From a virus (taxonomy: Duplodnaviria; Heunggongvirae; Uroviricota; Caudoviricetes), in the IMG/VR virus record IMGVR_UViG_2526164634_000009: 42,795 nucleotides of DNA; one strand, given 5' to 3'. The first letter of the stretch is position 1; every line of letters starts with the position of its first letter. The notes under the pieces were generated by a model. The model searched no databases and had not been told where the DNA came from. It was given only the letters and a program-made list of their open reading frames with translations. The position numbers and the translations under genes were made by a program. Shown here in pieces: positions 6,063 to 40,167 of the stretch.

Positions 6063-6843
6063 TAATCACCTCAATACTGACACCACCGGGAACAAACAAC
6101 GGGTTGCTGATACCGTTCCTGCGGGCCAGCCGTTGCCAGTTCCGGCTGTTTCCTGTGTAACGGTACAGGGCCACCATTGCAGGCATCGTCTCCGGCAGGC
6201 GGTGCGTTTCACTGCCCGCCAGTTGCAGCCCGCGTTTTTCCAGGTCGGCAACAACCAGCAGACGCAGTTGCGTAAGCTGAACGCTGTCTGTCGAAAAGCC
6301 CTGCTCAGATGCCGTCAGAATGACGGTATCCAGTGCAGCCCCCAGCATGGCGGCTGTTTTTCCGATATCGGACACACTTTCAAATACCGGGGGCGTGGCT
6401 GTACCACTGTCTGAAAAGGATACCTGTGAAAAACCGCCGTCCGGGGTTATGGCAGTTAACTGTAACTGTCCCTGTGTGACGGTAGCGGATGTGCTGCTGG
6501 CCCCGATGGCTGTGCCGGTTGTGGTGGACGGGGCATCCAGTACAGGTGCACGGGCGGCATTATCCATCCGGCGACTGAAATCCAGTGCCGCAGTCAGTGC
6601 CTGGCTGGCAGCTTCTGCCCGGTATGTCTGCGCCGCTGCCAGCATGACGTAGTTCAGTGTGGCAATATTTTTTTCTGCAACCGGACTGTTGTACGAGGTT
6701 GTGATTGTCCCCTGTCTGCCTGCGGTGGCAGCATGGCGACGTTCGAATCGCTGCGCCAGACGGTTCCATGTGGAAAATGCTGTCCGGGTATCGCATAACG
6801 ATGAAAGTAAGCGTGCAGCAAGAACCGTATTGACGGGGATGTG

Positions 6844-8382: not shown

Positions 8383-8430
8383 ACCGGGTATATTACCAGG
8401 CTCATTCAGCGTCGACCAGGATAAAGAGGC

Positions 8431-8778
8431 TTACAACATAGTCAGGGACGTAAGCAGTCTTTTAGGCTGCCGCCAGTCGATACCTTCCAGCAGCATCGCC
8501 AGCTGTGCCGGTGTGAGGAACACTTTGCCATCCCGGGCTGACGGCCAGGCGAAGCGGCCGCGCTCCAGCCGTTTGGTCAGCAGACACAGTCCATCGCCGG
8601 TAGACCAGAGGAGCTTTACCTGACTGCCATTACGCCCACGGAAGATAAAAACGTGACCTGACATCGGATCGTCTTTCAGCGTCGTCTGCACCTTTGCCGC
8701 CAGGCCGTTGAAGCCGTTTCTCATATCGGTGATGCCAGCGACCAGCCAGATCTTTGTCCCTGATGGTAATGGGATCAA
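8431..8778 (-). CDS. tnpB: IS66-family accessory protein TnpB (Orf2)
   Basis: 115 aa, MIPLPSGTKIWLVAGITDMRNGFNGLAAKV motif typical of IS66 Orf2. Confidence 0.9.
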   Translation of the reverse strand: MIPLPSGTKIWLVAGITDMRNGFNGLAAKVQTTLKDDPMSGHVFIFRGRNGSQVKLLWSTGDGLCLLTKRLERGRFAWPSARDGKVFLTPAQLAMLLEGIDWRQPKRLLTSLTML

Positions 8779-9179
8779 CGTTTGAGCTCCCGTATCAGCA
8801 GGTTCAGGATATTTTCGCTGATGGCACCATTCAGACGGAGTGATCCGTGCCGGAACGTCACTTCACAGCTGATATTGAGTGATTCAGGTGTCGCAGCAGC
8901 TACAGGTTGTGACCGGGGGGAGGTTGTAGGGACAACATCTTCGGCATCAAGTGTTATCGGGAGCAGCTCAGGCACGTTGTTTTCTGTTGTTGAAGGAGGA
9001 CGTAGTTTTCCTTCGCGCCAGTACTGGCGCCACTTGAACAGCAAATTATCGTTGATCCCATGCTCACGAGCGAGTTGCGCTACGGAGATCTCTGGTCGAT
9101 GCGAGAGTTCAACCATTTTGATTTTGAACTCAACGGGATAATTAGGGCTTTTTTTACGCACTGCGGTTAATGATTTCAT
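8775..9179 (-). CDS. tnpA: IS66-family accessory protein TnpA (Orf1), HTH
   Basis: 134 aa, overlaps tnpB start by 4 nt as in IS66 elements. Confidence 0.85.
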   Translation of the reverse strand: MKSLTAVRKKSPNYPVEFKIKMVELSHRPEISVAQLAREHGINDNLLFKWRQYWREGKLRPPSTTENNVPELLPITLDAEDVVPTTSPRSQPVAAATPESLNISCEVTFRHGSLRLNGAISENILNLLIRELKR

Positions 9180-10008
9180 GGATAGCGTCCACCATATTTG
9201 GTGTCCACTATTCTCTCAGGAATTTCAGGATCTGCCAGACGGTGCTGAGACGACGCTTACCGATGAAACGCCGGACAGCGCCCCCATCAGCGAGGAGGCC
9301 AGCATGGCAGGCTGGTTAATCAGGCTGGTCACAGAGCCTTTCATCGCAGAAAGCGATCCCATCAGACCGCTGACAGTCTGCGTAACCCCCAGATTGTCCA
9401 CCGCATCACTGATATCATCGATGACACCGGTTACAGCTTCCATCACGGCGGTTGCCGCCGCAGTGCCATCTTTTACGGTCTGCCAGACAGAGGACAGCGT
9501 ATCTCCCAGAGAACCGGTTACAGCAACGGCCTGTGCCGGTACGGCTGCACTGGTGTCTGTCTCTGCGTCCGGGGCAGTATCCTGCAACGACGGATAAACG
9601 GTAACGGTGAACGCGTAATAATTCAGTTCATCCGCTTTAGTGCGGCATTCCCATGAATCCACCATGACGTCCACAGTGCCGAAATCAGGATGTACCAGCT
9701 CACCGCTACCCGGAGCATCAAGAGCATCCATCAGCGCACCCGCTTCATCTCTGGCTGTTTCTGCGTTGCTGTTCAGAATGCAGGCGCTGAATGTACGGGA
9801 GCGAAGCTTTTTCCCCAGGTCATTGACGCCGCCGGTATCACGTAACGGGTACTCGCGTTTAACCAGGCGACGTCCGCCAGCCTGTTTTTGCTCCTCGATG
9901 ACGAGAAACGGCACGTTACGGAACGTGCCTTTGCCGGTTGTTTTCCTGCCTCCACCGGTTTTATCCCGGACAGCATTAACGACATTTAAAGCATCTTCAA
10001 ACATGGTT

Positions 10009-12081
10009 TTACCAGCCCGTAATGTAGTTATCGCCCGCGTAAATATTCAGCCCCATACCGTCCTCGGTGACGCGGGAACTGGTCAGACGTAACCCCTCGC
10101 CAAGTTCGACGCGCAGCGAGGCTTCCGCATTGACTTTTTGTTCCTGCGGTTCCTTATCCGTGGCCGTCCATTTCTGATACAGGTCGGTTACAAAACCGCC
10201 CAGATACTCCCCGGCGACACTGCCCAGCGTGGCACCGGCAACCGTACCCAGCGGTCCGGCAAGGCTGCCAACGGCACCGCCGAGCCATGCACCGGCTGTA
10301 CTGCCAATTGCGCCTGCTTTTTCATGGGTTGACGCCTGCTCATCCATCAGGACGGGGGCAAGCTGGAGTGCCCCCATTACCGGGCCACCCAGACGTGACA
10401 ACGCACGACCGGCACCTTTCCCCATCCAGCCCAGCGCCCCGGCACCTTTTGTCACAACCCGACCGATCGCACTGCCTGCAAGTTTGTTTCCGATACCGGA
10501 AAACCACCCGCCAGCGGCACGCCCGGCATCAGCCAGCTTTCCGACCGTTCCCGTAACCAGTTGCCCGGCAGCACTGCCTGCAAGCCTGCTCAGAAGACCG
10601 GATTTACCGGGTAAAGGTAATGGTGCAGGCCGTGCCGTTACCGGTACGCCGGGTGGGGGTAATGCCAGTACAGGGCGTGGTGCAGGTAATGCCAGCGGCT
10701 GTGGCCCGGACAGCAATAACGGCTGGCGGGGTAACAGCGGGGCCATTCTTCCGCCGCTCCGTACGCGACGACCGCCGCCACTCCCGTAGCCACCAAATCC
10801 ACGGGGCCAGTTGATGACAAACACACGCTGAATGCCGATACCCTGCAACAGCGTCTCAGACGTCATGGCATCCGGGACCGGCAGCCCTGCCTGCCCACGT
10901 TTGCGGTTTCGCATCCAGCGCCACATACGACGCCCGGTTTTAAACGGATAACTGGCAACCTGCCATGAGGGTTTTGCCACGGCCCAGCCTGCTCTCAGGG
11001 CTTTATTGGCAAGCCAGACAGACACCAGAACAGCAGCCAGTTTTTTCAGGCTGACAATATTCTGGTCAACCCATGCCAGCGCATCTTTACCCGGTTTCAG
11101 CCAGCGCCATAACTCCTGCGCCGCGATTTTTACCGTTCTGAACGTGGTCAGAAATTTCTGACCAATGTTTTCTGCCAGTGCGTCAAGTTCCCCGGATTTA
11201 TCCGCCATGTCGTGCCAGTTAAGCACCCGGCGCATCTCGTTCTTGATTTCTTCAAAGGGGCCGCTGTTTGCCACCTTTATGCGAAATTCAAGCAGGTTGG
11301 CTTCCATCTGGGCGAACATCCCGTCCCAGGAGTTCATCGCACTGGCCTGTGCACCTTTTGACTGTTCTGACAGCGTTCTGAATACCGTCAGAATGGATTT
11401 CAGGCCCAGCTTGCCCTTTGTACCCAGATCACGGATTTTTTTAACGTCCGTTCCCGTTGCATCCGCCAGCGCCTGATAAACGTTGATACCGTAACCGGTC
11501 AGCAGGTTGGCATCCGCCGCTGTGATTTGCTGGCGGGCAAACATCTGTTTCAGTTGCAGTGAGGCACCCTGGGCAGTGGGTAAATCCCAGCCGTGCATGG
11601 CCCCCTGATCCTGCAACATGGTGATGAACTGTTTCGTCTGTTCATCCGTCATGCCGAAGCCTTTCGACGAACGGATCTCATCCAGAACACCACTCAGCCC
11701 CCACGTGGTGTCCTTCGCGTTCTGCTTTGCCCAGGCCATCATGGCCTGCGCTCTGACCTTATCGCCGTGATACAGCGAGTTCATGGCGATGATCTGCTGC
11801 TCACGCTGGGCGGCTGCACCAATAAACAGTTTATTGGCGGTGTAACCCACGCCAGCGATACCCAGCGCCCCGGCTGACAGCATTCGGAATGTACGGGTTG
11901 ACAGTGAACCCATTCTGTCAATGGCACCAGAAACGCGCACAACCTCCATACGCAGGGCACGAAGGGAACTTTGCCCGCTACGGGACAGGGCGTTTATCTG
12001 GTTCGAATACTGGCGGGAACGCCGGGAAAGATTGCCATTAAGATCAATAATGACAGACGCCTTTAAGCGTTTCCCGGTCAT
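10009..12081 (-). CDS. Tail tape measure protein
   Basis: 690 aa, alpha-helical with Gly/Ala/Pro-rich segment, between tube/chaperone and N. Confidence 0.8.
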
Positions 12082-16156: not shown

Positions 16157-17074
16157 TTACAGGTAGTCAGCGACAACCAGTTGCAGCTTGCCCTTCATCT
16201 CGTTGGAGACGGTGGTATTGCCATCCGCGAACAGTTCACGGTTAAGCAGTTGCTCTGCGGCTTTTTCCAGCCCGACCGGTACAACGATATGCGTCGGCTT
16301 CAGGCCCAGCTTCTTACCGCCATCACCTTCAAAAGATCGCATCAGTTGCCAGCCCTTCCAGAGGTTATCCAGCGTCAGATCGCCTTTTACCGCGACAGCC
16401 ATCTGCCAGAAGCCGTAACCGGCAGCACGGCGGGCGCTGGCACCAAACAGGAACTCGTTATCCATAAAAACGTGGTCGTCATCGATACGGGTACGTGCGA
16501 CCAGCTCCGGTTTGCGGCGCTCCTGGAAAATCAGCGGTTTGACTGCGCGGGAGCAGTCCAGCAGATAGAACGGCAGACCGCTGAAGCTGTCCTGCTCAAC
16601 GATGTTGGAGGTATTAACCGCGCTGCCCGTGCCGTCCACATTCGGATATACCGGATGCTCCTTGTCGAAGAAGTTCTGACCGTCATAGCACGGCTGGGTA
16701 AAGCCATCTTTCAGAAGTTTAAAAATCAGCTCATCCGGCTGAACTGCCGCAGAACGCCCCATCTCCTGAAAAATCGGCGCATAAATACCCAGATTGTCAT
16801 CCTCGAAGTCATCACGGGAAATACCCACGGTGCCTTCAAACGTTTTATTGGCGATGGAGTAGCCATGCGCTTCCATTTGCTGAATGGTTCGCTTACCCAC
16901 CCATTCTTTCAGGGTCGGGAATTTACCCAGCCAGCCATAGGTATTACTGCGGGTGGAAGAGTTCACCACCATTGCAATTTTGCTGTACTGCGACGGGGCG
17001 TCTTCAAGACCGCCCTGAAAATCCTTACGCCAGGAGGTCATCAGGGCTTTAATGGATGCCGGGGTGACAATCAT
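16157..17074 (-). CDS. T: Major capsid protein (Mu T-like)
   Basis: 305 aa, follows protease/scaffold gene. Confidence 0.85.
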   Translation of the reverse strand: MIVTPASIKALMTSWRKDFQGGLEDAPSQYSKIAMVVNSSTRSNTYGWLGKFPTLKEWVGKRTIQQMEAHGYSIANKTFEGTVGISRDDFEDDNLGIYAPIFQEMGRSAAVQPDELIFKLLKDGFTQPCYDGQNFFDKEHPVYPNVDGTGSAVNTSNIVEQDSFSGLPFYLLDCSRAVKPLIFQERRKPELVARTRIDDDHVFMDNEFLFGASARRAAGYGFWQMAVAVKGDLTLDNLWKGWQLMRSFEGDGGKKLGLKPTHIVVPVGLEKAAEQLLNRELFADGNTTVSNEMKGKLQLVVADYL

Positions 17075-18156
17075 TTTTCTTGTTCCTGTTTCATTTTCAG
17101 ATACTCAGCCTCAGTAATGCCGAGCGCCTTCACTGCTGCCTGTTCATCAGCAGACAGCACCGCCACCGCCGGTTTTTCCTGCGACGGGATTTTCGCTGTG
17201 GTGGTCTGCATGGCAGATAACGCAGCGATGGGCTGTTTTTTCTCAAGCTGTGCCGACAGTGCCGCCACGCCAATCTGACCGCCAAGCTGTTCCAGGTAGG
17301 TACGTTCGCTTTTGAAAATGCGGCCTTCCTGTTCCGCCTTGTCCAGAACGGCGCTCAGGCTGGCTGTGGCGCTTTGTGCAGTCGCCTGTGCCAGTTCATC
17401 ACGCAGGGCGTTGTAGCTTTCCACAGGGACGTATTTCGTCAGGTCAACGGCGGCTTTCTGTGCCTTTTCCAGTTCGGCGGATAACGACGCCACTTTTCCG
17501 GCATCTGTTTCGAGCGCATCAAGCGCACTCAGGGCCGCGCTGGCCTGTTCATCGGTGATGTCTGCATTTTCGGGGACAGTCACCCCAAGACGCGCAAGCA
17601 GCTTGCGCAGCGTTTCATTCATGGGTTTGTTCTCCTGTTGAAGGATGTCGGGAAGGTCTGCCGCCAGTGCGGTCAGCTTTTTCATGCCGGTGGCACCGGG
17701 GTCATTGGTCAGCGCAGCAAGGCGGATTTGCAGCACCGCACCGGTGGCGGTGTCATACGGAAAAACCGCAGAGAGATAACCAAATTCGCCGTCATCGATG
17801 CGCTGCTGGGCCGCCGCCGTCCAGCGTGGGTGGATAAATAACCCTTCACCTTCACGCCACTGCATTTCATCGGCGTTAAACCAGCCAGCCGCGACGAGTT
17901 GTTCCGGGGGTAATCCTTTGTCCTTACGTAGCTGGTTATGCTCGTAATCAATCAGCACGTCCTGGTTGAGCGCGCGAACGCCTTCAACCAGACGCCCGGC
18001 AATCTCACCGTCGATGAACCACCCCTGACCACCTGTCACATCAAACGGGCGACCATCACGGGCACTGAAATGACCGGCAGGCAATAGCTGGCACCAGCCG
18101 TCATCGTCAATGGACAGCGCATTCAGTGCGGCAATGCCAATCGCGTGTTTTTTCAT
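17071..18156 (-). CDS. I: Head protease / scaffold protein (Mu I-like)
   Basis: 361 aa, Ala/Glu-rich coiled-coil C-terminal half typical of scaffold. Confidence 0.8.
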   Translation of the reverse strand: MKKHAIGIAALNALSIDDDGWCQLLPAGHFSARDGRPFDVTGGQGWFIDGEIAGRLVEGVRALNQDVLIDYEHNQLRKDKGLPPEQLVAAGWFNADEMQWREGEGLFIHPRWTAAAQQRIDDGEFGYLSAVFPYDTATGAVLQIRLAALTNDPGATGMKKLTALAADLPDILQQENKPMNETLRKLLARLGVTVPENADITDEQASAALSALDALETDAGKVASLSAELEKAQKAAVDLTKYVPVESYNALRDELAQATAQSATASLSAVLDKAEQEGRIFKSERTYLEQLGGQIGVAALSAQLEKKQPIAALSAMQTTTAKIPSQEKPAVAVLSADEQAAVKALGITEAEYLKMKQEQEK

Positions 18157-18198
18157 GTCCTGCTGCTCATCATGGTTTGTGAGCAGTCAGTTTGCGGG

Positions 18199-18208
18199 AG
18201 GTGCGGGA
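18199..18208 (-). promoter_or_regulatory. Candidate late-promoter element TCCCGCACCT (minus-strand reading) upstream of gene I
   Basis: Exact 10-mer shared with region upstream of lys, at similar distance (about 45-55 nt) from the start codon. Confidence 0.4.
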
Positions 18209-18352
18209 AAATCTGGGGTTATGCTATTTGAGTACTGGAGAAAGAAAGTGGAAGGAAGATAAAACGGGATTCATACACCGTTAAATACCGGTTTAAAAAT
18301 CCCGTGGCGCGTTTTAAAAAATCTGTGCGGCTGATTTCATGTCTGATTCCGT

Positions 18353-18823
18353 TTATTGCCTCAGAGCGGCGCTGACGCGTTTTCTGATGGCATCAAAAAT
18401 TTCCTGTTCCCCGGTCTTATCCAGCCCCATATAAGGACGCGCAGGAACGCCTGCCGGGCGGGGTGCCATATCGGGTGTACCGCCCCACTGATGGATGGCA
18501 GCATAAATTTTTGGCGAACCAATCAGGGCATAATCCTGTCCATAATCGGTGGTAATGCTGCGTGCCAGATCGCCATGCAGGGTAAGGATACTGCCCGGAA
18601 CAAAACCATGATCCTGACGCCATGCCTGCCACGAATCGCTCCACGCTTCCCAGCCTTTCCCTGTATCCGGGTCTGCCTGCCGTTCAAATGCCTGTTCCGT
18701 GGATGACAGCAGCGCCGCAGCCATCACACGGGGAATGGCGCGGTCACGTGTAACGGTTCCCAGTTCATCCAGTGCAAGCTGAATACGTCGCACATCCACG
18801 GCAACGTTCATATCAAGACTCAC
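18353..18823 (-). CDS. G: Virion morphogenesis protein (Mu G-like)
   Basis: 156 aa, between F and I. Confidence 0.7.
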   Translation of the reverse strand: MSLDMNVAVDVRRIQLALDELGTVTRDRAIPRVMAAALLSSTEQAFERQADPDTGKGWEAWSDSWQAWRQDHGFVPGSILTLHGDLARSITTDYGQDYALIGSPKIYAAIHQWGGTPDMAPRPAGVPARPYMGLDKTGEQEIFDAIRKRVSAALRQ

Positions 18824-20175
18824 TTATTCACCTCCACATGCCCCTCCAGTACGTCAATCATCCCGTCAGCAATCGCGGCTTCAAGCGACTGTGCAGATAC
18901 GCGGCTGATACTGACCAGCACATCCGCACGGTCATTCTGCCTGCCGACTGTCTGTGATGTTCTGACTACAATCCGGGCCATGCCGTCACGGGTTGCCACA
19001 ACATACAGCAACTGGTGGTTCTCCCTGTCCCACAATACTGCCTGTGGTTTTGCCATCAGCGACGGCAGACGCTGTAAATCTTCCGGTTTCAGGGCGGCAT
19101 CAGCAGTGGTCGCCAGACTTTTCCCGTTCATCACAAGCAGACGGGCTGGCATATTCCCGGTGCGCTGATGTACGGCTTCAGCTACCGATTCCGTCATAAA
19201 ACCCAGTGCCCGGATTTCATGAGCGGTCTGACGTGATCCTGCCAGGCGTTTAAGCCAGAGGGAAAAAGCAAGCTGACGCTCCCGGCTGTTATTCAGCGTC
19301 TGAACAACCTGCTCACGCAACTGCGCGTCGCGAATTTCCACCAGTTTTCGAATCAGTGCCTGATCCGTACCAAACGCCGCCGAACCCGGGTTATATGACC
19401 AGCCCACATCCGGCGTCATTTTTACCCGACCGTTGTCAAACGTGGTTGACGATGTGCGGAAAATCTCTCCGGTGCTTTCATCCATACCGGCGTCCACTTC
19501 GCGGGTATTCATGAATGACGCACCATAACTGACCTGTAGCCCCAGTTCTTTCATGCGGGCCGCAGACACCGCCCGGACGCGACAGCGGCAGTTCCAGCCA
19601 TTGGGCGGGTAATGCGTCTGCCAGAAAATGTCGTCATACCTGAAAACCATATTGTGCAGCCGCGCATGTTCCGGGCGTGTTCTGCCATCCATAACGGCAA
19701 CGTACTGCCAGTATGGATACAAATCTGCGGTATTCATCATCTGCGCATAACGTCCTGCCCCATACGCCGTACGGGTATTGACGTTATAAATGGTTGCCAG
19801 ACGACGCGGACTGCCCAGCTCGATTACCTTTGCGTTTCCCTCTGCATCCACGATGATTTGTTTTCCCCACCATCCGAGTTTTTGCAGCCGGGGGGCCAGT
19901 GTGCGGGTAAATTCCTCACGGGTGATGCCTTCACTGACAGCCCGCTCCACTTCCTCACGGATTGTGGTCAGGACATCCATCCGGGTGGCTTTGGCAACGG
20001 TAAAGGCGCGGGCGTGCGCGTCTGCCAGTTGTTCGTACCAGTTCCAGGTGATGTTGTAGCCTTTGGCGCGGAAATACGCGACAGCCTCCTTTGGCGGGAG
20101 GCGTGCGGCATACGCCAGATCAATGGTCTGCTGCGGCATCCAGACGCCCCCATATATCGGCAACAAAAATGGCAC
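18820..20175 (-). CDS. F: Head morphogenesis protein (Mu F-like); true start may be internal at 20139
   Basis: 451-aa ORF downstream of portal; first ATG overlaps portal 3' end by 56 nt. Confidence 0.75.
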   Translation of the reverse strand: MPFLLPIYGGVWMPQQTIDLAYAARLPPKEAVAYFRAKGYNITWNWYEQLADAHARAFTVAKATRMDVLTTIREEVERAVSEGITREEFTRTLAPRLQKLGWWGKQIIVDAEGNAKVIELGSPRRLATIYNVNTRTAYGAGRYAQMMNTADLYPYWQYVAVMDGRTRPEHARLHNMVFRYDDIFWQTHYPPNGWNCRCRVRAVSAARMKELGLQVSYGASFMNTREVDAGMDESTGEIFRTSSTTFDNGRVKMTPDVGWSYNPGSAAFGTDQALIRKLVEIRDAQLREQVVQTLNNSRERQLAFSLWLKRLAGSRQTAHEIRALGFMTESVAEAVHQRTGNMPARLLVMNGKSLATTADAALKPEDLQRLPSLMAKPQAVLWDRENHQLLYVVATRDGMARIVVRTSQTVGRQNDRADVLVSISRVSAQSLEAAIADGMIDVLEGHVEVNK

Positions 20176-21658
20176 GGGTCAGCATGTCGATAAGTTCTGC
20201 ATCATCCATCTGCGGATATAATGAAGCGGCTTTGTTCATGGCGGCTTCCGGGCCATCTTTCAGCACAGAAAAAATGACGGGTTTCAGCAGGGGATCAACC
20301 GAACGCTGCCAGTCTTCCGGTGAAACGCCCATCCGGTCGACATCATCCTCCTGCGGGATATCATCAGCGGATAATGCGGCTTCTTTCTGCGGACCGTTAT
20401 CCGGGACAACCGGTTGAGCAGTAAACACGGCTTCGTCACCGACCGGCTGTGGAATATGGAGTTTTTCCTGTATCCAGGAGACCGGAATACGCATTCCCGC
20501 CGCCAGTTTCGGAATGGCGTCAGACAGTGCCGTAATATCACCCGCTTCACTGGTATCAAACACAATGCCCGGCAGGCGGTTAATATCAATGGTGCTGTCA
20601 CTGTTCAGTGCCAGCAGGGGATAAATCAGATCACGGTTAATACTGCGGGCAAGCTGGCCCACATCCGCGTTACGGATTTCCCGGCGAACCTCATCATGCA
20701 CTTCACCCAGCGACCGTGCGCCTTTATCGCCAGCCTCTGTGGTCAGGGTGCCGCCCAGAATGGCTTTTGAAATCGCTTTTTCTGCCCAGCCAATCATCGC
20801 CATAAAGGGGTCTGACTGACCATCTGCGGCGCTCTGAAAATCCAGCGTCATCCCCATCGGAATAATGCCACCGGCACGTCGCCCGATATCCATCACGGCC
20901 TGCATCAGCGTGGCTTTCTCGCGGTTCGTGGAGCCGGTCGGATATTTACCGACGCGCATGGGGAGTCCGTAAATTTCCAGAAACTCTGCAAAATCACGCA
21001 CGGAATAGTTTTTAAAAATAAAAGGCCAGATAAGCGTGCGCACAAGGCCATTGGTGCCGACATACCCGGTGCGGGATTTGGCCCGGTGCATAAACCAGCC
21101 GAACGGTTGCAGCTCCAGCCCGTGATAAGACGCATCACGCAGGTGTAATTCGTTCAGATTGTCGGGGTTCGCGCAGAACAGCGCCGGATCGCGATGATGC
21201 AGCGCCACCGGCACGCGCATTTTCCCCAGCCAGCCCCATTCAATCTCCTGCATGGAATAGCCCTTGAGAATGGCATCACCGGCATCAAACAGGGCATCTT
21301 CAAACCACGCCGCATCATGCAGATATTCATTCAGCATGTCAGCGTCTTTTTTCTCCTGTGCGCTGGCATCACGTGCCGGAGCGATGCGCCATTCCAGCGC
21401 CTGAATGGCAAGGCGGCGTTTGCTCAGTTCGGAAAAAAGGTGGGTGTCCTTTTCTTCCATATCAAAGGCCAGGTCAGCCTGTGCTGTCAGATCACCGCGT
21501 TCGGCATCATGCAGCATCTGCGCGGCCCGGTTCGGCGTCACACCACTGGAAGGATGCTCCTGCGTACGCTTCATGACCATTGCCAGCTCATCGCTGCGGG
21601 TCTGCATTTCATCGTCAAAATCAAACGGCTGCCCGGAAATATCCAGAATACGGCCCAT
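20120..21658 (-). CDS. H: Portal protein (Mu gp29/H-like)
   Basis: 512 aa, directly after terminase large subunit. Confidence 0.8.
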   Translation of the reverse strand: MGRILDISGQPFDFDDEMQTRSDELAMVMKRTQEHPSSGVTPNRAAQMLHDAERGDLTAQADLAFDMEEKDTHLFSELSKRRLAIQALEWRIAPARDASAQEKKDADMLNEYLHDAAWFEDALFDAGDAILKGYSMQEIEWGWLGKMRVPVALHHRDPALFCANPDNLNELHLRDASYHGLELQPFGWFMHRAKSRTGYVGTNGLVRTLIWPFIFKNYSVRDFAEFLEIYGLPMRVGKYPTGSTNREKATLMQAVMDIGRRAGGIIPMGMTLDFQSAADGQSDPFMAMIGWAEKAISKAILGGTLTTEAGDKGARSLGEVHDEVRREIRNADVGQLARSINRDLIYPLLALNSDSTIDINRLPGIVFDTSEAGDITALSDAIPKLAAGMRIPVSWIQEKLHIPQPVGDEAVFTAQPVVPDNGPQKEAALSADDIPQEDDVDRMGVSPEDWQRSVDPLLKPVIFSVLKDGPEAAMNKAASLYPQMDDAELIDMLTRAIFVADIWGRLDAAADH

Positions 21659-23313
21659 TACCAGCCCCCTCGTTCAAACTGGTGATAATCATCAAAATCA
21701 TCGTTATCAACACCATCACCACGGTGGCGTGGTGGCAGCGCCTGTATGCTGTCCTCGTCGATAACAAAACCATTCATATAAGACGCCCTGACAGCCATAC
21801 AGAGCGCCACGGCAAAGTCGCCATGTCGTCGGCCTTTACCGCCTTCGTCTTTTGTGCGCCCCTTATCAATCTGCGGAATACCTTTGTCCACCTTGATGTG
21901 GAGCAGGTCATCAAGTGTGGTCTGGTGCCGGGCAATCGTGATGTTCTGCGCTTCAAACTCGCCTTTCAGTTTCGGCATCCACTCCTGATACCAGGATGCG
22001 GTCAGATTCACACAGTCGATCATCTCCGGGCCATAAATCAGACGGGCGGCTTCTGCCAGATAACCGCCGTTACCGGTGGCATCAAATGCAGCGCCGGTAA
22101 AACGGGGCAAACGGGACAGAATGAATAAAAGGATTTGTCGCTGCTGGTCATAGGTCACATTACGCAGCTCCACGCGGAAACATTCGCGTTTGCGTAAGTC
22201 AGGAGTGATGGCAAGCGGCACAAACACCGTCAGGTCGCCACGGCGTGCAAAGTCTTCGCCCAGTACGTGTTTATTGAGCGGCGACAGCGCATCGAGCAAC
22301 GGGAGCAGCTCCTGTTCACACCAGTCCTGAACGATGCCGTGGCGCATTTGTGGTGTCAGCGATTCAAAATCGTCCGGGGCTTCAAAACGCAGAATCGGGA
22401 TATCCCGCACTGGCGTCATGGCGGCTTCAATCAGCACGCGTGACAGATAAGCGCCCCCGGATTTTTTGGGAATGCAGCCGTATTCCTCGTCGGCACTCTC
22501 TTTATTCGGCGCATTCCGGTACAGGCCATCACGCCAGGCTTTTTCCGCTTCCGGCGACCACGGCTGATTCGTGACGTAACAGATACGTCGGTACAACCCG
22601 TCAGCGATGGCATCATCCAGCGTGATGCGGTGAACGCTGTAATCCTTGCGCCCCTCGCGCGCATCCTGAATGTACTGGTTAAACAGGTTATCGACGCCGT
22701 TATGTGTCGATATGATCCGCACGCGGGCACCCCACATGGTGAGAGCAAAAGCCGCTTTCAGGAGTTCGTCCAGGGCTTCATGAAATGCCGCCTCATCAAT
22801 CACCACGTCTCCCTGCAAACCACGCAGGTTAGACGGACGGCTTGACAGCGCCTGCACCTTAAATCCGCTGTTAGGGAAACGGATCATATAAGTGAGGATT
22901 TCTTCTTTTTTGTCGCTGTCCCAGAAGGTCTGCTCCCATACGTCAGCCTTTGCCAGTTGGTTAAAGGCGCGGGCAAACAGGGCACAGGCGGCAATGTATT
23001 CCAGCGCCATTTCCTGACGGGAACCCACATAAAAAACGTTGCGACCGCCACGGCGACGCGGCTTTGCTGCCGTCATGACATTGCGGCCCGCTTCGGCCCA
23101 TGTCAGACCGGTACGACGGGATTTTTCAGCAATACAAATCTGGCTTTCATCCTCAAACCAGCGGCGCTGATAACCCAGAAAAACCGGTTCATTGCGGGGC
23201 TGTGCTTCCCCGATATCGGTAACGATATTCACGCCCAGCAGTTCGGCTTCCTTACGCAGGTCGATTTTTCGGGGGGCATGAAGGGCTTTAAGATTGTTTT
23301 CTCTGGTGTTCAT
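21658..23313 (-). CDS. Terminase large subunit (Mu gp28-like)
   Basis: Start chosen at internal ATG 23313 (MNTRENNLK...), which follows the terS stop by 8 nt; the 615-aa first-ATG version would overlap terS by 185 nt. Confidence 0.8.
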   Translation of the reverse strand: MNTRENNLKALHAPRKIDLRKEAELLGVNIVTDIGEAQPRNEPVFLGYQRRWFEDESQICIAEKSRRTGLTWAEAGRNVMTAAKPRRRGGRNVFYVGSRQEMALEYIAACALFARAFNQLAKADVWEQTFWDSDKKEEILTYMIRFPNSGFKVQALSSRPSNLRGLQGDVVIDEAAFHEALDELLKAAFALTMWGARVRIISTHNGVDNLFNQYIQDAREGRKDYSVHRITLDDAIADGLYRRICYVTNQPWSPEAEKAWRDGLYRNAPNKESADEEYGCIPKKSGGAYLSRVLIEAAMTPVRDIPILRFEAPDDFESLTPQMRHGIVQDWCEQELLPLLDALSPLNKHVLGEDFARRGDLTVFVPLAITPDLRKRECFRVELRNVTYDQQRQILLFILSRLPRFTGAAFDATGNGGYLAEAARLIYGPEMIDCVNLTASWYQEWMPKLKGEFEAQNITIARHQTTLDDLLHIKVDKGIPQIDKGRTKDEGGKGRRHGDFAVALCMAVRASYMNGFVIDEDSIQALPPRHRGDGVDNDDFDDYHQFERGGW

Positions 23314-23320
23314 AACCCTC

Positions 23321-23911
23321 TCATGCCTTACCCAGCAGCACATCACGGATACGCTGCTCCAGCTCTTCGCTGATGCCATCCTGCCCGCGCAGTTCTTCAC
23401 TGACGGCGTTTGCCGCTTCTTCTGCGAATGCCTGGCGGATTTCTTTCTCGCGCCGGTGGCTGGACATTGCCGTGGATTCCAGACGCTGTGCCGCCAGCAT
23501 GGCATTTTTCAGCAGGTCAATATCCACGTCAGATTCCGGGTTTTCGATTTGCCGCATCATGGCCTTAAAAAGCTGGCTGCGGGCCATTTCCAGAATCAGC
23601 TTTGTGGTTTCTCCCATTGGCTTGTCGCCAAGTTCTGCGGTCAGTGCTGACGTCATTTCACGCATCTGTCGCAGGTTATGGCCTACCTGCTCGACGTTCG
23701 TCGCGTAACGGTTCAGACCGGAACGGGAGAGTTTCATCTCATCCGGCAGGCCAGCGTCTTCAATCAGTGCGTTAATTTCTTCCAGAATGCGGGCCTGTGG
23801 GATCGCTTTATCACGCAGCATTTCATGCAGCGTTTTACGTACGTTTTCCGGCAGTAAATCCACTTTTGAAGCCCGGCCCCGTGTTTTCCTGTCCATCACG
23901 CCTCCTGTCAT
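23321..23911 (-). CDS. Terminase small subunit-like protein (Mu gp27-like)
   Basis: 196-aa ORF immediately upstream of terminase large subunit. Confidence 0.6.
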   Translation of the reverse strand: MTGGVMDRKTRGRASKVDLLPENVRKTLHEMLRDKAIPQARILEEINALIEDAGLPDEMKLSRSGLNRYATNVEQVGHNLRQMREMTSALTAELGDKPMGETTKLILEMARSQLFKAMMRQIENPESDVDIDLLKNAMLAAQRLESTAMSSHRREKEIRQAFAEEAANAVSEELRGQDGISEELEQRIRDVLLGKA

Positions 23912-24198
23912 GCACGGGGACGAGGACGCTTGACACCGGCAACGCGGGCACGACCTTCCGCCACATCCTGACCTCGGGAGGTCAGCGTTACGACATAAAA
24001 GCCGCGCAGGTTTTCCACGGTGACCAGTTGCTGCTCTGCCAGCCAGTCAATCTGGCCGCGAACCACATCGCGGGAAACGTTGTGTCCGTATGCATCCAGA
24101 CAGTCCTGAAGGATGGATTCGTTTGCTTCGTTATTGCAGTCCATCAGGGAACGCAGGATGACCAGACGACGGTCTTCGGTCAGAATATCGTTAATCAT
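23908..24198 (-). CDS. Hypothetical protein (Mu gp26 position)
   Basis: 96-aa ORF, 4-nt overlaps with neighbours. Confidence 0.45.
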   Translation of the reverse strand: MINDILTEDRRLVILRSLMDCNNEANESILQDCLDAYGHNVSRDVVRGQIDWLAEQQLVTVENLRGFYVVTLTSRGQDVAEGRARVAGVKRPRPRA

Positions 24199-24512
24199 GA
24201 ATTACTCCGGTTTACTGCGTTTTCAAGCAGCAGCTCCAGTTGATGGGAAAATGACTGCACCCGCTGGGACAGCACCCGGATATCGCCGGACAGCTCTGCA
24301 ATTCGCAGGCGCATTTCGTGTACATCTTCTGTGCCAGGGATGCTGGCGTAGCGGGTTTCCATTTCGGTCATCCGGTTTTCAAGACGCTCCACACGCTCAG
24401 TGCTGGCAAAACTACGACGCATTGCCCAGACGGCCCCACCGGCCACAACAGGCAACAGGTAAGGCCATAACGCTAAAACTGAAATCAAATCCATTATTCT
24501 GCTCCACGGCAC
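24195..24512 (-). CDS. Membrane protein with N-terminal TM helix and coiled coil (Mu gp25-like, possible lysis regulator)
   Basis: 105 aa; hydrophobic segment ISVLALWPYLLPVVAGGAVWA then heptad-rich region. Confidence 0.5.
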   Translation of the reverse strand: MPWSRIMDLISVLALWPYLLPVVAGGAVWAMRRSFASTERVERLENRMTEMETRYASIPGTEDVHEMRLRIAELSGDIRVLSQRVQSFSHQLELLLENAVNRSNS

Positions 24513-24688
24513 CAGTGGCAGTAGTTCGCCATCGGCTGCTGTCTCAGCACATCAGGCCGCAGCTCACGACCGCAACCGGGACACAATACAGGCGGGTCAT
24601 ACGCCGCCGGGCGGGGAATATCACGGGTATCCCCCTGCCAGAGTTCAGCGAGCAGCAGCGCCACCGCCCGGTTCTGGTCTTCGTTCAT
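24494..24688 (-). CDS. Small zinc-ribbon protein (CPGCG...CHWC)
   Basis: 64-aa ORF with two Cys pairs. Confidence 0.4.
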   Translation of the reverse strand: MNEDQNRAVALLLAELWQGDTRDIPRPAAYDPPVLCPGCGRELRPDVLRQQPMANYCHWCRGAE

Positions 24689-24986
24689 AAATTTCTTTCC
24701 TTCGGGTCTCCTGTTCCCGGACTGATGCCTTGTCGCGGTTGCACTGCCCGAGCGCCATCAACAGGTCAGCATTCCAGAGAAGGGATGCTCCCCACGTCAG
24801 GGGCTGTGGCATGGGCGGAACGGGCGTTGCTTCCGTCAGTTCTGCATCAGTTTCGGGCAGGATCACCACCGATGGCACGGGTGCGTTTTTCGAGTTCCCG
24901 CAACCTGTCAGCAGCAACGGCAGGCACAGGACGAGTGCTGCAATTGTCACCGGTAATGGCGGTTGTAATTTTTTGTTTTGCATCAT
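24645..24986 (-). CDS. Outer-membrane spanin (o-spanin) lipoprotein, start inside i-spanin gene in another frame
   Basis: Internal start MMQNKK..., signal peptide with lipobox LLTGC, Pro-rich mature region. Confidence 0.6.
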   Translation of the reverse strand: MMQNKKLQPPLPVTIAALVLCLPLLLTGCGNSKNAPVPSVVILPETDAELTEATPVPPMPQPLTWGASLLWNADLLMALGQCNRDKASVREQETRRKEIYERRPEPGGGAAAR

Positions 24987-25233
24987 GATGTTCTGTCTCG
25001 TCTGCCAGCCGCGCGGCACGATTTGCGGCACGGATAGCGGAAAATACCTGCATCGTCTGTTCCTGACCGTGTAACAACCATTCAGCCGTGTTGCGGGCCT
25101 GTTGCTCCGTCTGTAATTCACGGCGCAGCGTCTGGTTATCGTGGCGGGTGCTGTCCAGCCTGTGCCACAACACCCCGGACAAAACGGCGGCAAACACGGC
25201 TGCCAGCAGTAAACTTTTACTGGCGAAGGTCAT
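24847..25233 (-). CDS. Inner-membrane spanin (i-spanin, Rz-like)
   Basis: 128 aa, N-terminal TM helix then charged coiled-coil periplasmic domain; immediately after endolysin. Confidence 0.6.
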   Translation of the reverse strand: MTFASKSLLLAAVFAAVLSGVLWHRLDSTRHDNQTLRRELQTEQQARNTAEWLLHGQEQTMQVFSAIRAANRAARLADETEHHDAKQKITTAITGDNCSTRPVPAVAADRLRELEKRTRAIGGDPARN

Positions 25234-25735
25234 CCGCCCCCCTGATATTCCAGATAGCCATTTCCACTTCGCGACGGTTCATCAGTCCTTTCCATTTATG
25301 GCCTGCGGCAAACACCCAGCGGGCCATCTGGTCACGCGCTCCGGCGTAATCACCGGCATTGAGTTTTTTCAGCAGCGTTGATTTACTGAATGCGGTAACA
25401 CCGGTGTTGAAAATAAACGTTGCCAGCGCCGTTTTCTGATATGGCGTCAGCGGCACCCTGACAAGACGATCGATTGCCGCATAAACCGGTTTTAAATCAC
25501 TGTCGAGGAGAGCCATACACTCCGCATGGCTGTAACGGCGCATTTCGATATCCGGCCCGGTATGCCCCACACAGACCGAAAGCACACCGCCAATATCGCG
25601 GTAAGGCATATAAGCGATATTTTCCAGGTGGATCAGAGACTGACGGGTCATTTCCTGATAACCACCCACACCGCCACCGGCAATCGTTACAGCCAGCAGT
25701 GTGGCTTTCAGTTTTTTTGGTATCCCCGCCATCAT
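25217..25735 (-). CDS. lys: SAR endolysin (phage lysozyme family; Mu lys-like)
   Basis: 172 aa, N-terminal weakly hydrophobic Gly/Ala-rich signal-anchor-release segment, downstream of C. Confidence 0.8.
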   Translation of the reverse strand: MMAGIPKKLKATLLAVTIAGGGVGGYQEMTRQSLIHLENIAYMPYRDIGGVLSVCVGHTGPDIEMRRYSHAECMALLDSDLKPVYAAIDRLVRVPLTPYQKTALATFIFNTGVTAFSKSTLLKKLNAGDYAGARDQMARWVFAAGHKWKGLMNRREVEMAIWNIRGADDLRQ

Positions 25736-25782
25736 GCTTCCCTGAAAAAATGCTCTGATGGCAGTCTAAAAAATCAGGTGGC

Positions 25783-25792
25783 AGGTGCGGGA
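25783..25792 (-). promoter_or_regulatory. Candidate late-promoter element TCCCGCACCT upstream of lys (Plys region)
   Basis: Same 10-mer as upstream of gene I. Confidence 0.4.
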
Positions 25793-25807
25793 TTATGGTG
25801 ACAGGAA

Positions 25808-25830
25808 ATAACCGGCAGGATGCCGGTTAT
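25808..25830. terminator. Perfect 10-bp palindrome ATAACCGGCA-GGA-TGCCGGTTAT overlapping the end of gene C
   Basis: Stem-loop with T-run on plus strand; role (middle-transcript terminator vs regulatory dyad) not resolvable. Confidence 0.35.
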
Positions 25831-26249
25831 TTTGGGCTTTCAGGTGAGAACAGATCAGGCTGATGACGTCGTGTATGCAGCTTTCTCTGGCGGGCAATAA
25901 TCTGGTAGATCTGCGGCTGGGACAGGCGGTACTGGCGACGCAGTTCTTCCATGTTACGACCATTAAACTGGCAGTAAAGCAAATCGTCGCGTAACGCGGT
26001 CAGGATCGTATCGCCGCAGGGGATGTAAAACTGCCGTCCACCCAGAAAACAGGACAGGGCAACGGCCTGTTTACGGGCAAGTTCACGGGGATTGCTGACG
26101 TTCTGGCGTTTCAGTTCGTTTTCCAGAACATCAATCAGATCAACCACCGAACGGGGCCAGCGTGATTCCAGTTCCGGGGCCGGGATGTTATCAATATGTC
26201 CGATTAACTGGCGAATTGCCGGATCGTGTTCAAATAAATCATGCTGCAT
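25827..26249 (-). CDS. C: Late transcription activator C (Mor/C family)
   Basis: 140 aa; close paralogue of the Mor-like ORF at 27228-27617 with shared C-terminal HTH region. Confidence 0.85.
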   Translation of the reverse strand: MQHDLFEHDPAIRQLIGHIDNIPAPELESRWPRSVVDLIDVLENELKRQNVSNPRELARKQAVALSCFLGGRQFYIPCGDTILTALRDDLLYCQFNGRNMEELRRQYRLSQPQIYQIIARQRKLHTRRHQPDLFSPESPK

Positions 26250-26381: not shown

Positions 26382-26592
26382 AATATTTTTCCTTATAACG
26401 TTGACAGTGGTGAAGAATTTCCGGCATATCAACTGACTGCCAGCCTTTCATGTAATAACTGCCGTGGGTGCCATCGTGCCCTGTGTAATCCATTGGCTTT
26501 GGTGGTGGGCCTCCGGCCTCCCGATGTAATACCTCCTGTCGTAAACGTTCACGCCTGCCGAACTGAAAGGACGCATCCCACCCTTTACCCAT
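26362..26592 (-). CDS. Hypothetical 76-aa protein translationally coupled to GH108 gene
   Basis: ATG at 26592 overlaps GH108 stop (ATGGGTAA arrangement). Confidence 0.3.
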   Translation of the reverse strand: MGKGWDASFQFGRRERLRQEVLHREAGGPPPKPMDYTGHDGTHGSYYMKGWQSVDMPEILHHCQRYKEKYCVQKIQ

Positions 26593-27145
26593 GCAGAACC
26601 TCCCGACAGGCGCTGGCGAGCAGATCCAGACGGTTAAACCAGCCATTCAGATATTTCCCCTGCGAGGCACTGGATTTGATAATCCCTGCGTAATAGCGGG
26701 AACGACGCAGGAAGCACTGCAACAGCAGCCAGTCAGTATCGGCACGCAGAACGGCTGCGCGTGTGTTTTTACCGACGATGCCATCATCATCAACACCTGC
26801 TGCCGCCTGGAGGATCTGAATCGCGCGTTTAACACCGTGCTGAACGGCAGCATCAAAAACGAATAAGGAAACGCCATCAGGCCATTCGTTACACTTTGCC
26901 GCCAGCCAGTAATCACGCCAGTAGATCTGCGCCGCCTGCTCGCGGGTTAAATCCTTAATGCGGGTATCAGGTTTTCCGTCACCGTTAACATCGGTTTTGC
27001 CATCAATAACGCCGTCGCGACGGTCAGAAATACCGTATTTCGTTTCGCCGCCACGGTCGGCAGGATCATTAACATAGCCACCTTCAACATCAGGGCGTAT
27101 AACGAAATTCAGCGAATGAAGGAATGCAGGGGAAAACTCAGGCAT
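26585..27145 (-). CDS. Glycoside hydrolase family 108-like muramidase with C-terminal peptidoglycan-binding domain
   Basis: N-terminal EGGYVNDPADRGGETKYGI motif characteristic of GH108; strong RBS AGGAGGG; first gene after terminator that follows mor. Confidence 0.65.
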   Translation of the reverse strand: MPEFSPAFLHSLNFVIRPDVEGGYVNDPADRGGETKYGISDRRDGVIDGKTDVNGDGKPDTRIKDLTREQAAQIYWRDYWLAAKCNEWPDGVSLFVFDAAVQHGVKRAIQILQAAAGVDDDGIVGKNTRAAVLRADTDWLLLQCFLRRSRYYAGIIKSSASQGKYLNGWFNRLDLLASACREVLHG

Positions 27146-37745: not shown

Positions 37746-38077
37746 CCTCTCTATACGACTATGAGGAGAAATTGCTTATTGCCAGATGGGAACTGACAGC
37801 AGAACAGGCTGTTACACAGCAGTTAAAAAATGAGGTGTCAAAAGGAAAACTGATTGACACCGGGTTCTGTATTTTTGCCCTCAGTAAGCTGGCAATGGCG
37901 TTATCCAGTACGCTTGATTCCATCCCTTTATCCATGCAGCGACAGTTTCCTGATTTAACACCGCGCCATCTTGACCATCTGAAAACCATTATTGCGAAGG
38001 GGGCAAATCAGTGTGCGCGGGCAGGGGATAAATTACCGGATTTACTCGATGAATATATCAGAGCAACAACTGAATAA
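37742..38077 (+). pseudogene. nu1: Lambda-like terminase small subunit nu1, 3' fragment only (truncated by Mu-like prophage insertion)
   Basis: Frame opens only at 37742 after in-frame TAA; translated C-terminal part resembles lambda Nu1 C-terminus and overlaps A start as in lambda. Confidence 0.7.
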
Positions 38078-39977: not shown

Positions 39978-40167
39978 ACTGCAGGCGCTGCGTCAGGCGC
40001 GCCTTGATTTATTAACCGGTAAACGGGTGGTGTCTGTCCAGAAAGATGGTCGCAGAATTGAATATACGGCGGCTTCTCTGGATGAGCTTAACCGGGCGAT
40101 CAATGATGCGGAGTCGGTACTGGGGACAACCCGACGTCGCCGTCGTCCGCTGGGAGTGAGGTTATGA
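39961..40167 (+). CDS. W: Head-tail joining protein gpW
   Basis: 68 aa, between A and B. Confidence 0.8.
   Translation: MVTVAELQALRQARLDLLTGKRVVSVQKDGRRIEYTAASLDELNRAINDAESVLGTTRRRRRPLGVRL

What the first reader, a model, noticed from the sequence alone, without database searches (positions are those of the whole stretch)
18157..25826. Identical 10-mer TCCCGCACCT upstream of lys and of gene I: candidate C-dependent late-promoter element
The same decamer (plus-strand AGGTGCGGGA at 18199-18208 and 25783-25792) sits about 45-55 nt upstream of the start codons of the endolysin gene and the protease/scaffold gene. These are the positions where Mu has the C-activated promoters Plys and PI. A shared element at a fixed distance in two otherwise unrelated intergenic regions is unlikely by chance.
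Basis: partly seen in the sequence, partly recalled or inferred. Interest (0 to 1): 0.5.

Follow-up and report, generated by a model that had tools for sequence, protein, structure and literature searches.

The report
Known 10-bp match in Mu late promoters
The repeated 10-mer is real and lies inside the two well-studied C-activated late promoters Plys and PI of a phage Mu prophage, but the match is already published, sits in different parts of the two promoters, and is not the sequence the activator C recognises.

Summary
The window holds a Mu prophage on the minus strand, 98-99% identical to Mu, D108 and SfMu. TCCCGCACCT occurs exactly twice, at the stated coordinates. Both copies lie inside the late promoters Plys and PI as annotated in the Mu reference record. 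A 10-bp lys/I match is already drawn in Fig. 1B of Swapna et al. 2015 (PMC4461284).

The 10-mer is not the C-responsive element.
- All four Mu late promoters share one register: right half-site ATAA at -40..-37, then 24 bp, then the -10 hexamer. This matches the published C dyad centred at -43.5.
- In that register the 10-mer is at -36..-27 in Plys (weak -35 region) and at -26..-17 in PI (spacer). That is a 10-bp offset.
- It is absent from PP and Pmom.
- In ten related lineages of Mu-like prophages (C protein 57-81% identical, DNA-binding region well conserved), only ATAA/GGAA plus YCCC and the -10 hexamer are conserved. The rest of the 10-mer is not.
- Two natural variants in the Mu clade carry substitutions in the PI copy.

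The shared element is ATAAYCCC-N20-NANNNT, which hits exactly Plys, PI and PP in the window. Verdict: already known, low interest. The 10-mer is most likely an incidental, clade-specific identity between C-rich promoter segments.

The parts
25783..25792 (-). 10-mer TCCCGCACCT, copy in Plys. Occupies -36..-27, i.e. the four bases next to the C half-site plus the weak '-35' position.
   Evidence: The register comes from the Mu annotation.
18199..18208 (-). 10-mer TCCCGCACCT, copy in PI. Occupies -26..-17, the spacer between the -35 position and the -10 hexamer.
   Evidence: offset 10 relative to Plys.
25743..25809 (-). Late promoter Plys, equivalent to the Mu record feature 10403-10469. Half-site ATAA 25793-25796, -10 hexamer TAGACT 25763-25768, inferred +1 near 25756. 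The region equivalent to -52..-34 is 25790-25808.
   Evidence: PMC2582627 gives the -52..-34 requirement and the footprint.
18169..18235 (-). Late promoter PI, equivalent to the Mu record feature 17977-18043. Half-site ATAA 18219-18222 followed by CCCC, -10 hexamer CAAACT 18189-18194, inferred +1 near 18182.
6397..6463 (-). Late promoter PP, inside gene N. ATAA 6447-6450 followed by CCCC, -10 hexamer TATCCT 6417-6422. Carries no copy of the 10-mer.
25827..26249 (-). Gene C, the late transcription activator (Mor/C family, PF08765), directly upstream of Plys.
   Evidence: 99% identical to 'positive regulator of late transcription'.
25217..25735 (-). lys (SAR endolysin), first gene transcribed from Plys.
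17071..18156 (-). Gene I (capsid maturation protease/scaffold), first gene transcribed from PI.

Best explanation
The two decamers lie in the known C-dependent late promoters Plys and PI of a Mu prophage.

How these promoters work, from the cited papers:
- Host sigma-70 RNA polymerase reads a recognisable -10 hexamer, but there is no usable -35 hexamer.
- The phage activator C binds an imperfect dyad centred at -43.5, just upstream of the -35 position. Its right half-site is ATAA at -40..-37, and the adjacent YCCC also matters.
- At Plys, PI and PP, C drives the closed-to-open complex step.

The decamer is not a functional unit of this mechanism.
- In Plys its first 3-4 bases (TCC(C)) belong to the conserved extension of the C box. 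The remainder covers the non-consensus -35 position.
- In PI the whole decamer lies one helical turn further downstream, in the spacer.

Inference: the exact 10-nt identity is an incidental, Mu-clade-specific coincidence between two C-rich promoter segments, arising by chance or perhaps by short-patch conversion.

Shown here: the positions, the common register, the lack of conservation and the natural variants. Taken from the literature: C binding, the footprint and the mutational requirement. Inferred: that the 10-mer as such has no function.
For: - The window is 98-99% identical to Mu, D108 and SfMu. The Mu record annotates late promoters over both copies.
- The four annotated 67-bp Mu late promoters stack in one register: ATAA at index 13-16 and the -10 hexamer at index 41-46. 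This gives a dyad centre of -43.5, as published (PMC2582627).
- In that register the decamer is at -36..-27 in Plys and -26..-17 in PI.
- PP and Pmom lack it.
- ATAAYCCC-N20-NANNNT hits exactly Plys, PI and PP in the window (0.13 expected; 0 of 100 shuffles gave three or more).
- In ten other lineages of Mu-like prophages the 'half-site + 24 bp + -10' architecture is kept. Column information is about 1.5 bits at -40..-33 but only 0.4-0.7 bits at -32..-17.
- In 9 of those 10 lineages the longest word shared by a phage's own Plys and PI is in register over the C box (6-19 nt). In the tenth (L009) the longest word is out of register, because PI carries a second upstream CCATAATCC copy. Within this set only the Mu clade shares an out-of-register word lying outside the C box.
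- Natural Mu-clade variants alter the PI copy: CCCCGCCCCT in L034 and TCCCGCACCA in E. coli RMDEC465.
- Mutagenesis of Plys found only -52..-34 and the -10 region to be required (PMC2582627).
- The match is already shown in PMC4461284, Fig. 1B.
Against: - An exact shared 10-mer is still fairly unlikely by chance (27 of 5000 shuffles for the two 67-bp promoters).
- The Plys copy is invariant in all Mu-clade contigs examined (about 22), although the neighbouring spacer is polymorphic.
- The offset is exactly 10 bp, so both copies face the same side of the helix relative to the C box. A functional reading could exploit this.
- No published C footprint or point mutagenesis exists for PI.
- I could not read Margolin et al. 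1989 or Chiang and Howe 1993 directly. The PI start site therefore rests on the database annotation and on the common register.
Confidence: 0.85

Rival explanations
1. The decamer is, or is the core of, the C-recognition element shared by the late promoters.
For: It lies in two C-dependent promoters. In Plys, 7 of its 10 bases lie within the published C footprint of about -55 to -30, and 3 lie within the mutationally required region (PMC2582627).
Against: - It is absent from PP and Pmom, which C also activates.
- It is 10 bp out of register between Plys and PI.
- The published C site is TTAT-N5-6-ATAA centred at -43.5, upstream of the decamer.
- It is not conserved in orthologous promoters of phages whose C proteins have a well-conserved DNA-binding region.
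- The PI copy varies naturally.
Confidence: 0.03
2. The decamer is a separate accessory element specific to the Mu clade. Possible forms are a site for a host or phage factor, or a DNA-shape or RNA polymerase contact that tunes C-independent closed-complex formation or isomerisation at Plys and PI. It would sit on the same helical face in both promoters, one turn apart.
For: - The offset is exactly 10 bp.
- The match is moderately improbable by chance.
- Plys, PI and PP bind RNA polymerase without C, and their activation step differs from that of Pmom (PMC4461284).
- The Plys copy is invariant in the Mu clade.
Against: - PP behaves like Plys and PI biochemically but lacks the decamer.
- There is no conservation outside the Mu clade.
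- The PI copy is changed in L034 and RMDEC465.
- Plys mutagenesis did not flag -33..-27.
- There is no other copy in the prophage.
Confidence: 0.07
3. The identity is a remnant of short-patch recombination or duplication between the two promoters, and has no function of its own.
For: - The flanks show extra similarity (ATAATCCCGCACCTGCCA versus ATTTTCCCGCACCTCCCG, 14 of 18).
- PI contains a local direct repeat, TCCCGCA-CC-TCCCGCA.
- The match is confined to the Mu clade.
Against: The PI spacer aligns base for base, without gaps, with those of the nearest lineages (L013, L011). This fits point substitution rather than a transferred patch. The data cannot separate this from pure chance.
Confidence: 0.05

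Closest known systems
Bacteriophage Mu late promoters Plys and PI (C-dependent; Margolin, Rao and Howe 1989, PMID 2522923; annotated in AF083977)
   Same: Same loci and essentially the same sequence. The window's Plys differs from Mu by one base downstream of the start site, and PI is identical over the 67-bp feature. Both have the same ATAA half-site, the same 24-bp distance to the -10 hexamer, and the C gene directly upstream of Plys.
   Different: Nothing of substance. This prophage carries an IS66-family insertion in gene N and an extra GH108 gene in the middle operon. Neither affects these promoters.
[quoted passage not shown] 1B of Swapna, Kumari and Nagaraja 2015 (PMC4461284)
   Same: By its description this is the same observation. 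TCCCGCACCT is the longest word shared by the two promoter sequences (legend).
   Different: The paper gives the match no function. The figure itself is not held, so I could not check the underlined bases letter by letter.
C-binding site of the Mu late promoters (imperfect dyad TTAT-N5-6-ATAA centred at -43.5; footprint about -55 to -30)
   Same: In Plys the decamer abuts the right half-site. Its first bases (TCC) belong to the required -52..-34 region and to the conserved YCCC.
   Different: The decamer has no dyad symmetry. It lies downstream of the dyad, it is entirely outside the box in PI, and it is missing from PP and Pmom.
C boxes of related Mu-like prophages (Kluyvera, Erwinia, Citrobacter/Salmonella types; loci L004, L005, L015)
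   Same: The architecture is the same: half-site + YC(C/A)C + 24 bp in total to the -10 hexamer.
   Different: In those phages Plys and PI share a 19-nt word, TCAGATACCGGAATC(C/A)CC(G/T), in register at -49..-31. This is what a true shared activator site looks like, and the Mu decamer does not behave this way.

Membership tests
Mu-type C-dependent late promoter (applies to the two regions that hold the decamer) | An imperfect dyad / right half-site ATAA at -40..-37 (dyad centre -43.5), with the adjacent downstream bases. | tested here: met
   ATAA+YCCC sits 24 bp upstream of the -10 hexamer at 25763-25796, 18189-18222 and 6417-6450. The register is identical to the Mu annotation and to the published centre of -43.5.
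Mu-type C-dependent late promoter (applies to the two regions that hold the decamer) | A recognisable -10 hexamer but no -35 hexamer. | tested here: met
   The -10 hexamers are TAGACT, CAAACT and TATCCT. The generic sigma-70 scan finds no full promoter in either region.
Mu-type C-dependent late promoter (applies to the two regions that hold the decamer) | A Mor/C-family activator gene in the same phage, with Plys directly downstream of it. | tested here: met
   The C gene is at 25827-26249. It is 99% identical to the known C protein and carries PF08765.
Mu-type C-dependent late promoter (applies to the two regions that hold the decamer) | Transcription starts there only in the presence of C. 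| not testable with these tools
   Shown for Mu itself in the literature (PMC4461284). Here it is inferred from 98-100% sequence identity.
C-protein recognition element (the claim made for the decamer itself) | Present in all C-activated promoters. | tested here: not met
   There are only two exact copies. PP and Pmom have nothing similar at the corresponding or any nearby position.
C-protein recognition element (the claim made for the decamer itself) | Same position relative to the -10 hexamer and the start site in each promoter. | tested here: not met
   -36..-27 in Plys against -26..-17 in PI, an offset of 10 bp.
C-protein recognition element (the claim made for the decamer itself) | Lies within the C footprint (about -55 to -30) and the mutationally required region (-52..-34). 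| tested here: not met
   In Plys, 7 of 10 bases lie in the footprint and 3 of 10 in the required region. In PI, 0 of 10, assuming the common register (for the published limits; for the coordinates). No PI footprint is published.
C-protein recognition element (the claim made for the decamer itself) | Conserved in orthologous promoters of phages whose C proteins have a similar DNA-binding region. | tested here: not met
   The C-terminal region of C (about residues 95-134) is well conserved across the 57-81% identical homologues. Only TCCC/YCCC is kept; positions 5-10 of the Plys copy and the whole PI copy are not. The PI copy is altered in L034 and RMDEC465.

The most novel reading that the evidence does not exclude
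The decamer is a second, Mu-clade-specific promoter element. It would be read on the same DNA face one helical turn apart in Plys and PI. Candidates are a contact for RNA polymerase in the C-independent closed complex, or a site for a host factor. It would tune the isomerisation-type activation that separates Plys and PI from Pmom.
Probability: 0.06. Interest if true: 0.35.

Novelty: already known. Interest (0 to 1): 0.08.

Why it matters
It matters little. The promoters, their activator and the 10-bp match itself are in the literature, and Mu late transcription is a textbook activator-dependent system.

The useful outcome is negative. The decamer should not be used as a search motif for C-dependent promoters. 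The informative signature is ATAA/GGAA + YCCC placed 24 bp upstream of a -10 hexamer. That signature finds all three late promoters present in this window and holds across diverged Mu-like prophages.

If the decamer did turn out to have a function, it would add a small lineage-specific detail about how C acts differently at Plys and PI than at Pmom.

Tried and rejected
- Degenerate copies. A search with up to 2 mismatches gave 62 hits against about 41 expected, scattered through coding sequence on both strands. None lies at PP or at any other intergenic site, so there is no wider motif family.
- An alternative PI promoter 10 bp downstream, which would put the decamers in register. Rejected: the hexamer there would be GCTCAC, without the invariant A and T. 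All ten other lineages place a NANNNT hexamer exactly 24 bp after the half-site in the canonical register.
- DNA-level searches of the phage collection in 'distant' mode returned only relatives that are 97-100% identical, which was uninformative. I therefore moved to protein-anchored retrieval with C homologues.
- Margolin et al. 1989 and Chiang and Howe 1993 could not be read because they are not held. Their results are cited only through PMC2582627, PMC4461284 and the GenBank annotation.
- The cross-lineage out-of-register word distribution was meant as an empirical null. It is contaminated by a second CCATAATCC copy upstream of PI in L009, so I did not use it.
- The generic promoter/terminator scans found nothing in either region. 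This is as expected for activator-dependent promoters, and they add nothing further.
Full report
**Observation**

AGGTGCGGGA (minus strand TCCCGCACCT) occurs exactly twice in the window, at 18199-18208 and 25783-25792. There is no further exact copy on either strand (0.14 expected; 1 of 100 shuffles gave two or more). Read on the minus strand, the Plys-side copy ends 47 nt before the first ATG of lys (25735). The other copy ends 42 nt before the ATG of gene I (18156).

Its statistical weight is moderate. With dinucleotide-preserving shuffles, a shared word of 10 nt or more arises in 27 of 5000 trials for the two 67-bp promoter segments. It arises in 153 of 5000 trials for the two complete intergenic regions.

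**Context**

An 8.2-kb stretch around the finding is 98-99% identical over its full length to phage Mu, D108, SfMu and several Yersinia Mu-type phages. The window is a Mu prophage lying on the minus strand.

The curated Mu record AF083977 annotates four 67-bp 'late promoter' features, citing PMID 2522923. One lies between C and lys, one between G and I, one inside N upstream of P, and one upstream of com/mom. Both decamers lie inside the first two of these features. The window starts inside the tail-fibre/G-segment region, so Pmom is not in the window. Plys, PI and PP are.

**Prior knowledge**

- The legend of Fig. [quoted passage not shown] [is] underlined'.
- Jiang and Howe 2008 (PMC2582627) summarise the promoter anatomy. 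The late promoters have -10 hexamers but no typical -35. C binds a 16-bp imperfect dyad centred at -43.5. DNase I footprints on Plys and Pmom cover about -30 to -55. Saturating point mutagenesis of Plys found that, apart from the -10 region, only -52..-34 is required. The bases immediately downstream of the dyad also matter.
- PMC12867686 gives the C consensus as TTAT-N5-6-ATAA.
- A 2025 cryo-EM preprint places C, as a tetramer, over nearly three helical turns upstream of the weak -35 element, in contact with sigma-70 region 4.
- Swapna et al. also show that RNA polymerase binds Plys, PI and PP without C, and that C acts there at open-complex formation.

**Register**

When stacked, the four annotated Mu features are all in one register. 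The half-site ATAA is at index 13-16. The -10 hexamers (TAGACT, CAAACT, TATCCT, TAAGAT) are at index 41-46. This puts +1 at index 53 and the centre of TTAT-N6-ATAA in Pmom at exactly -43.5, as published.

Transferred to the window:

| Promoter | Feature (minus strand) | ATAA | -10 hexamer | +1 (inferred) | Decamer position |
|---|---|---|---|---|---|
| Plys | 25809→25743 | 25796-25793 | 25768-25763 | near 25756 | -36..-27 |
| PI | 18235→18169 | 18222-18219 | 18194-18189 | near 18182 | -26..-17 |

The two copies are thus offset by exactly 10 bp relative to every functional landmark.

- In Plys the decamer starts directly after the half-site. Its first three bases lie in the required -52..-34 region, and the rest covers the non-consensus -35 position.
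- In PI the bases after the half-site are CCCC, and the decamer lies wholly in the spacer.
- PP (ATAA-CCCCGGACGG...) and Pmom (ATAA-CCACACTCAA...) have no copy.

**What is really shared**

The pattern ATAAYCCC-N20-NANNNT occurs three times in the window, all on the minus strand, exactly at Plys, PI and PP (0.13 expected; 0 of 100 shuffles gave three or more). The decamer is not there, but the C box is.

**Comparative test**

C homologues at 57-81% identity keep the C-terminal DNA-binding region well conserved. I retrieved their loci with 10-kb flanks from genomes, assemblies and IMG/VR. I then located the lys and I homologues.

- Ten lineages other than the Mu clade have both promoters, and every one shows the same architecture upstream of both genes. 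A right half-site (ATAA, GGAA or AGAA) is followed by YC(C/A)C, and exactly 24 bp separate the half-site from a NANNNT hexamer.
- Column information is about 1.5 bits over -40..-33 and 1.3-1.4 bits over the -10 hexamer. It is only 0.4 bits over -32..-27 and 0.6-0.7 bits over -26..-17.
- At the Plys position the decamer reads TCCCGCCTGT, TCCCGTACGT, CCCCGCCTGC, TCCCAAAGCC, TCCCTTTCTA, TCCCCGACAC, TCACCTCTCT and so on.
- At the PI position it reads CACCTTATTC, TCTCCCGTTC, TTTCGTGTTC, GGTTTCCCTC and so on.
- In 9 of the 10 lineages the longest word shared by a phage's own Plys and PI is in register and covers the C box. It reaches 19 nt (TCAGATACCGGAATCCCCG at -49..-31) in the Erwinia, Citrobacter and Kluyvera types. 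In the tenth lineage (L009) the longest shared word is out of register, because PI carries a second, upstream CCATAATCC copy. Only the Mu clade has an out-of-register word lying outside the C box.

**Variation within the Mu clade**

All Mu-clade IMG/VR contigs that include the region (about 22) keep the Plys copy, while the spacer next to it shows three haplotypes. The PI copy is changed in two cases:

- It reads CCCCGCCCCT in L034, whose C protein is 99% identical.
- It reads TCCCGCACCA in E. coli RMDEC465.

In the five-sequence alignment of the 151-bp PI region, one of the only three variable positions falls in the decamer. There is thus no sign of special constraint on the PI copy.

**Mechanism and verdict**

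The best-supported account is the established one. C bound at the dyad and its YCCC extension, just upstream of the -35 position, lets sigma-70 RNA polymerase form a productive open complex at a promoter that has only a -10 hexamer.

The decamer is not a unit of this mechanism. It is an incidental, clade-specific identity between two C-rich segments that play different roles in the two promoters. The PI spacer aligns without gaps to those of the nearest lineages, which fits origin by point substitution. Short-patch conversion cannot be excluded.

Three points count against complete dismissal: the match is moderately improbable, the Plys copy is invariant, and the offset is exactly one helical turn. 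I therefore leave about 6-7% for a Mu-specific accessory role.

For PI this is met under the common register, although no PI footprint has been published. For Plys it is partly met, since the footprint covers 7 of the 10 bases.

**Limits**

The primary papers for the PI start site and for the Plys mutagenesis were not readable here. I rely on later open-access summaries and on the GenBank features. The Fig. 1B image is not held, so the identity of 'the 10bp match' with TCCCGCACCT is inferred from its being the longest shared word.

Noticed in passing
window 6807-9253 (minus-strand ORFs 8775-9179, 8431-8778, 6844-8382): An IS66-family element (HTH_Tnp_1 ORF, TnpB_IS66, DDE_Tnp_IS66 transposase) interrupts gene N, the DNA circularisation / baseplate hub gene. 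Mu N nt 1-751 map to 10004-9254 and nt 737-1488 map to 6806-6055. The prophage is therefore probably defective. PP, about 340 bp downstream of the insertion, is intact.
   Followed up: partly
window 37992-41756: Beyond the prophage end that carries the early (repressor and transposase) genes lie a lambda-type terminase large subunit (GpA ATPase and nuclease domains) and a lambda-family portal gene. The Mu prophage therefore sits inside or next to another prophage.
   Followed up: partly
window 26585-27145 (-): A GH108 + PG_binding_3 (endolysin-like) gene lies between mor and C in the middle operon. It is absent from the Mu reference record but present at the same place in the relatives L009-L013. 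This is a second muralytic gene, expressed before the late lys gene.
   Followed up: partly
L034 (PI promoter, upstream of the I homologue); L058 (E. coli RMDEC465) columns 73-82 of alignment A2: Natural variants of the PI decamer occur in phages that are otherwise Mu-identical: CCCCGCCCCT (two substitutions) and TCCCGCACCA (one substitution).
   Followed up: yes
L004, L005, L015 and their relatives, upstream of the lys and I homologues: In the Erwinia, Kluyvera and Citrobacter-type Mu-like prophages, Plys and PI share an exact 19-nt word, TCAGATACCGGAATC(C/A)CC(G/T), in register at -49..-31. The half-site there is GGAA instead of ATAA, which suggests a shifted C specificity in that branch.
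   Followed up: partly
L009/L010, about 18053 minus 100 (upstream of the I homologue): PI of this Salmonella diarizonae-type phage has a second CCATAATCC copy 14 bp upstream of the canonical CCATAACCCC half-site (CCATAATCCATATTCCATAACCCC). It may be a tandem C half-site.
   Followed up: no
L004 about 10500-10620 (also L047): In the Erwinia tracheiphila prophage a tandem run of CCCCAAAAG units lies between the Plys -10 region and the conserved part of lys. It extends the N-terminus or leader of the endolysin gene.
   Followed up: no
window about 18332-18333: By homology with the Mu annotation ('gyrase cut site', record 17879-17880), the strong gyrase site lies in the same G-I intergenic region, about 125 bp upstream of the PI decamer.
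   Followed up: no
window 25812-25826 (-): The hairpin CCGGCA-TCC-TGCCGG followed by TTATTT (annotated in Mu as the terminator after C) ends only a few bases before the C box of Plys. The end of the middle transcript and the late promoter are therefore packed into about 90 bp. The simple terminator scan did not call it.
   Followed up: no
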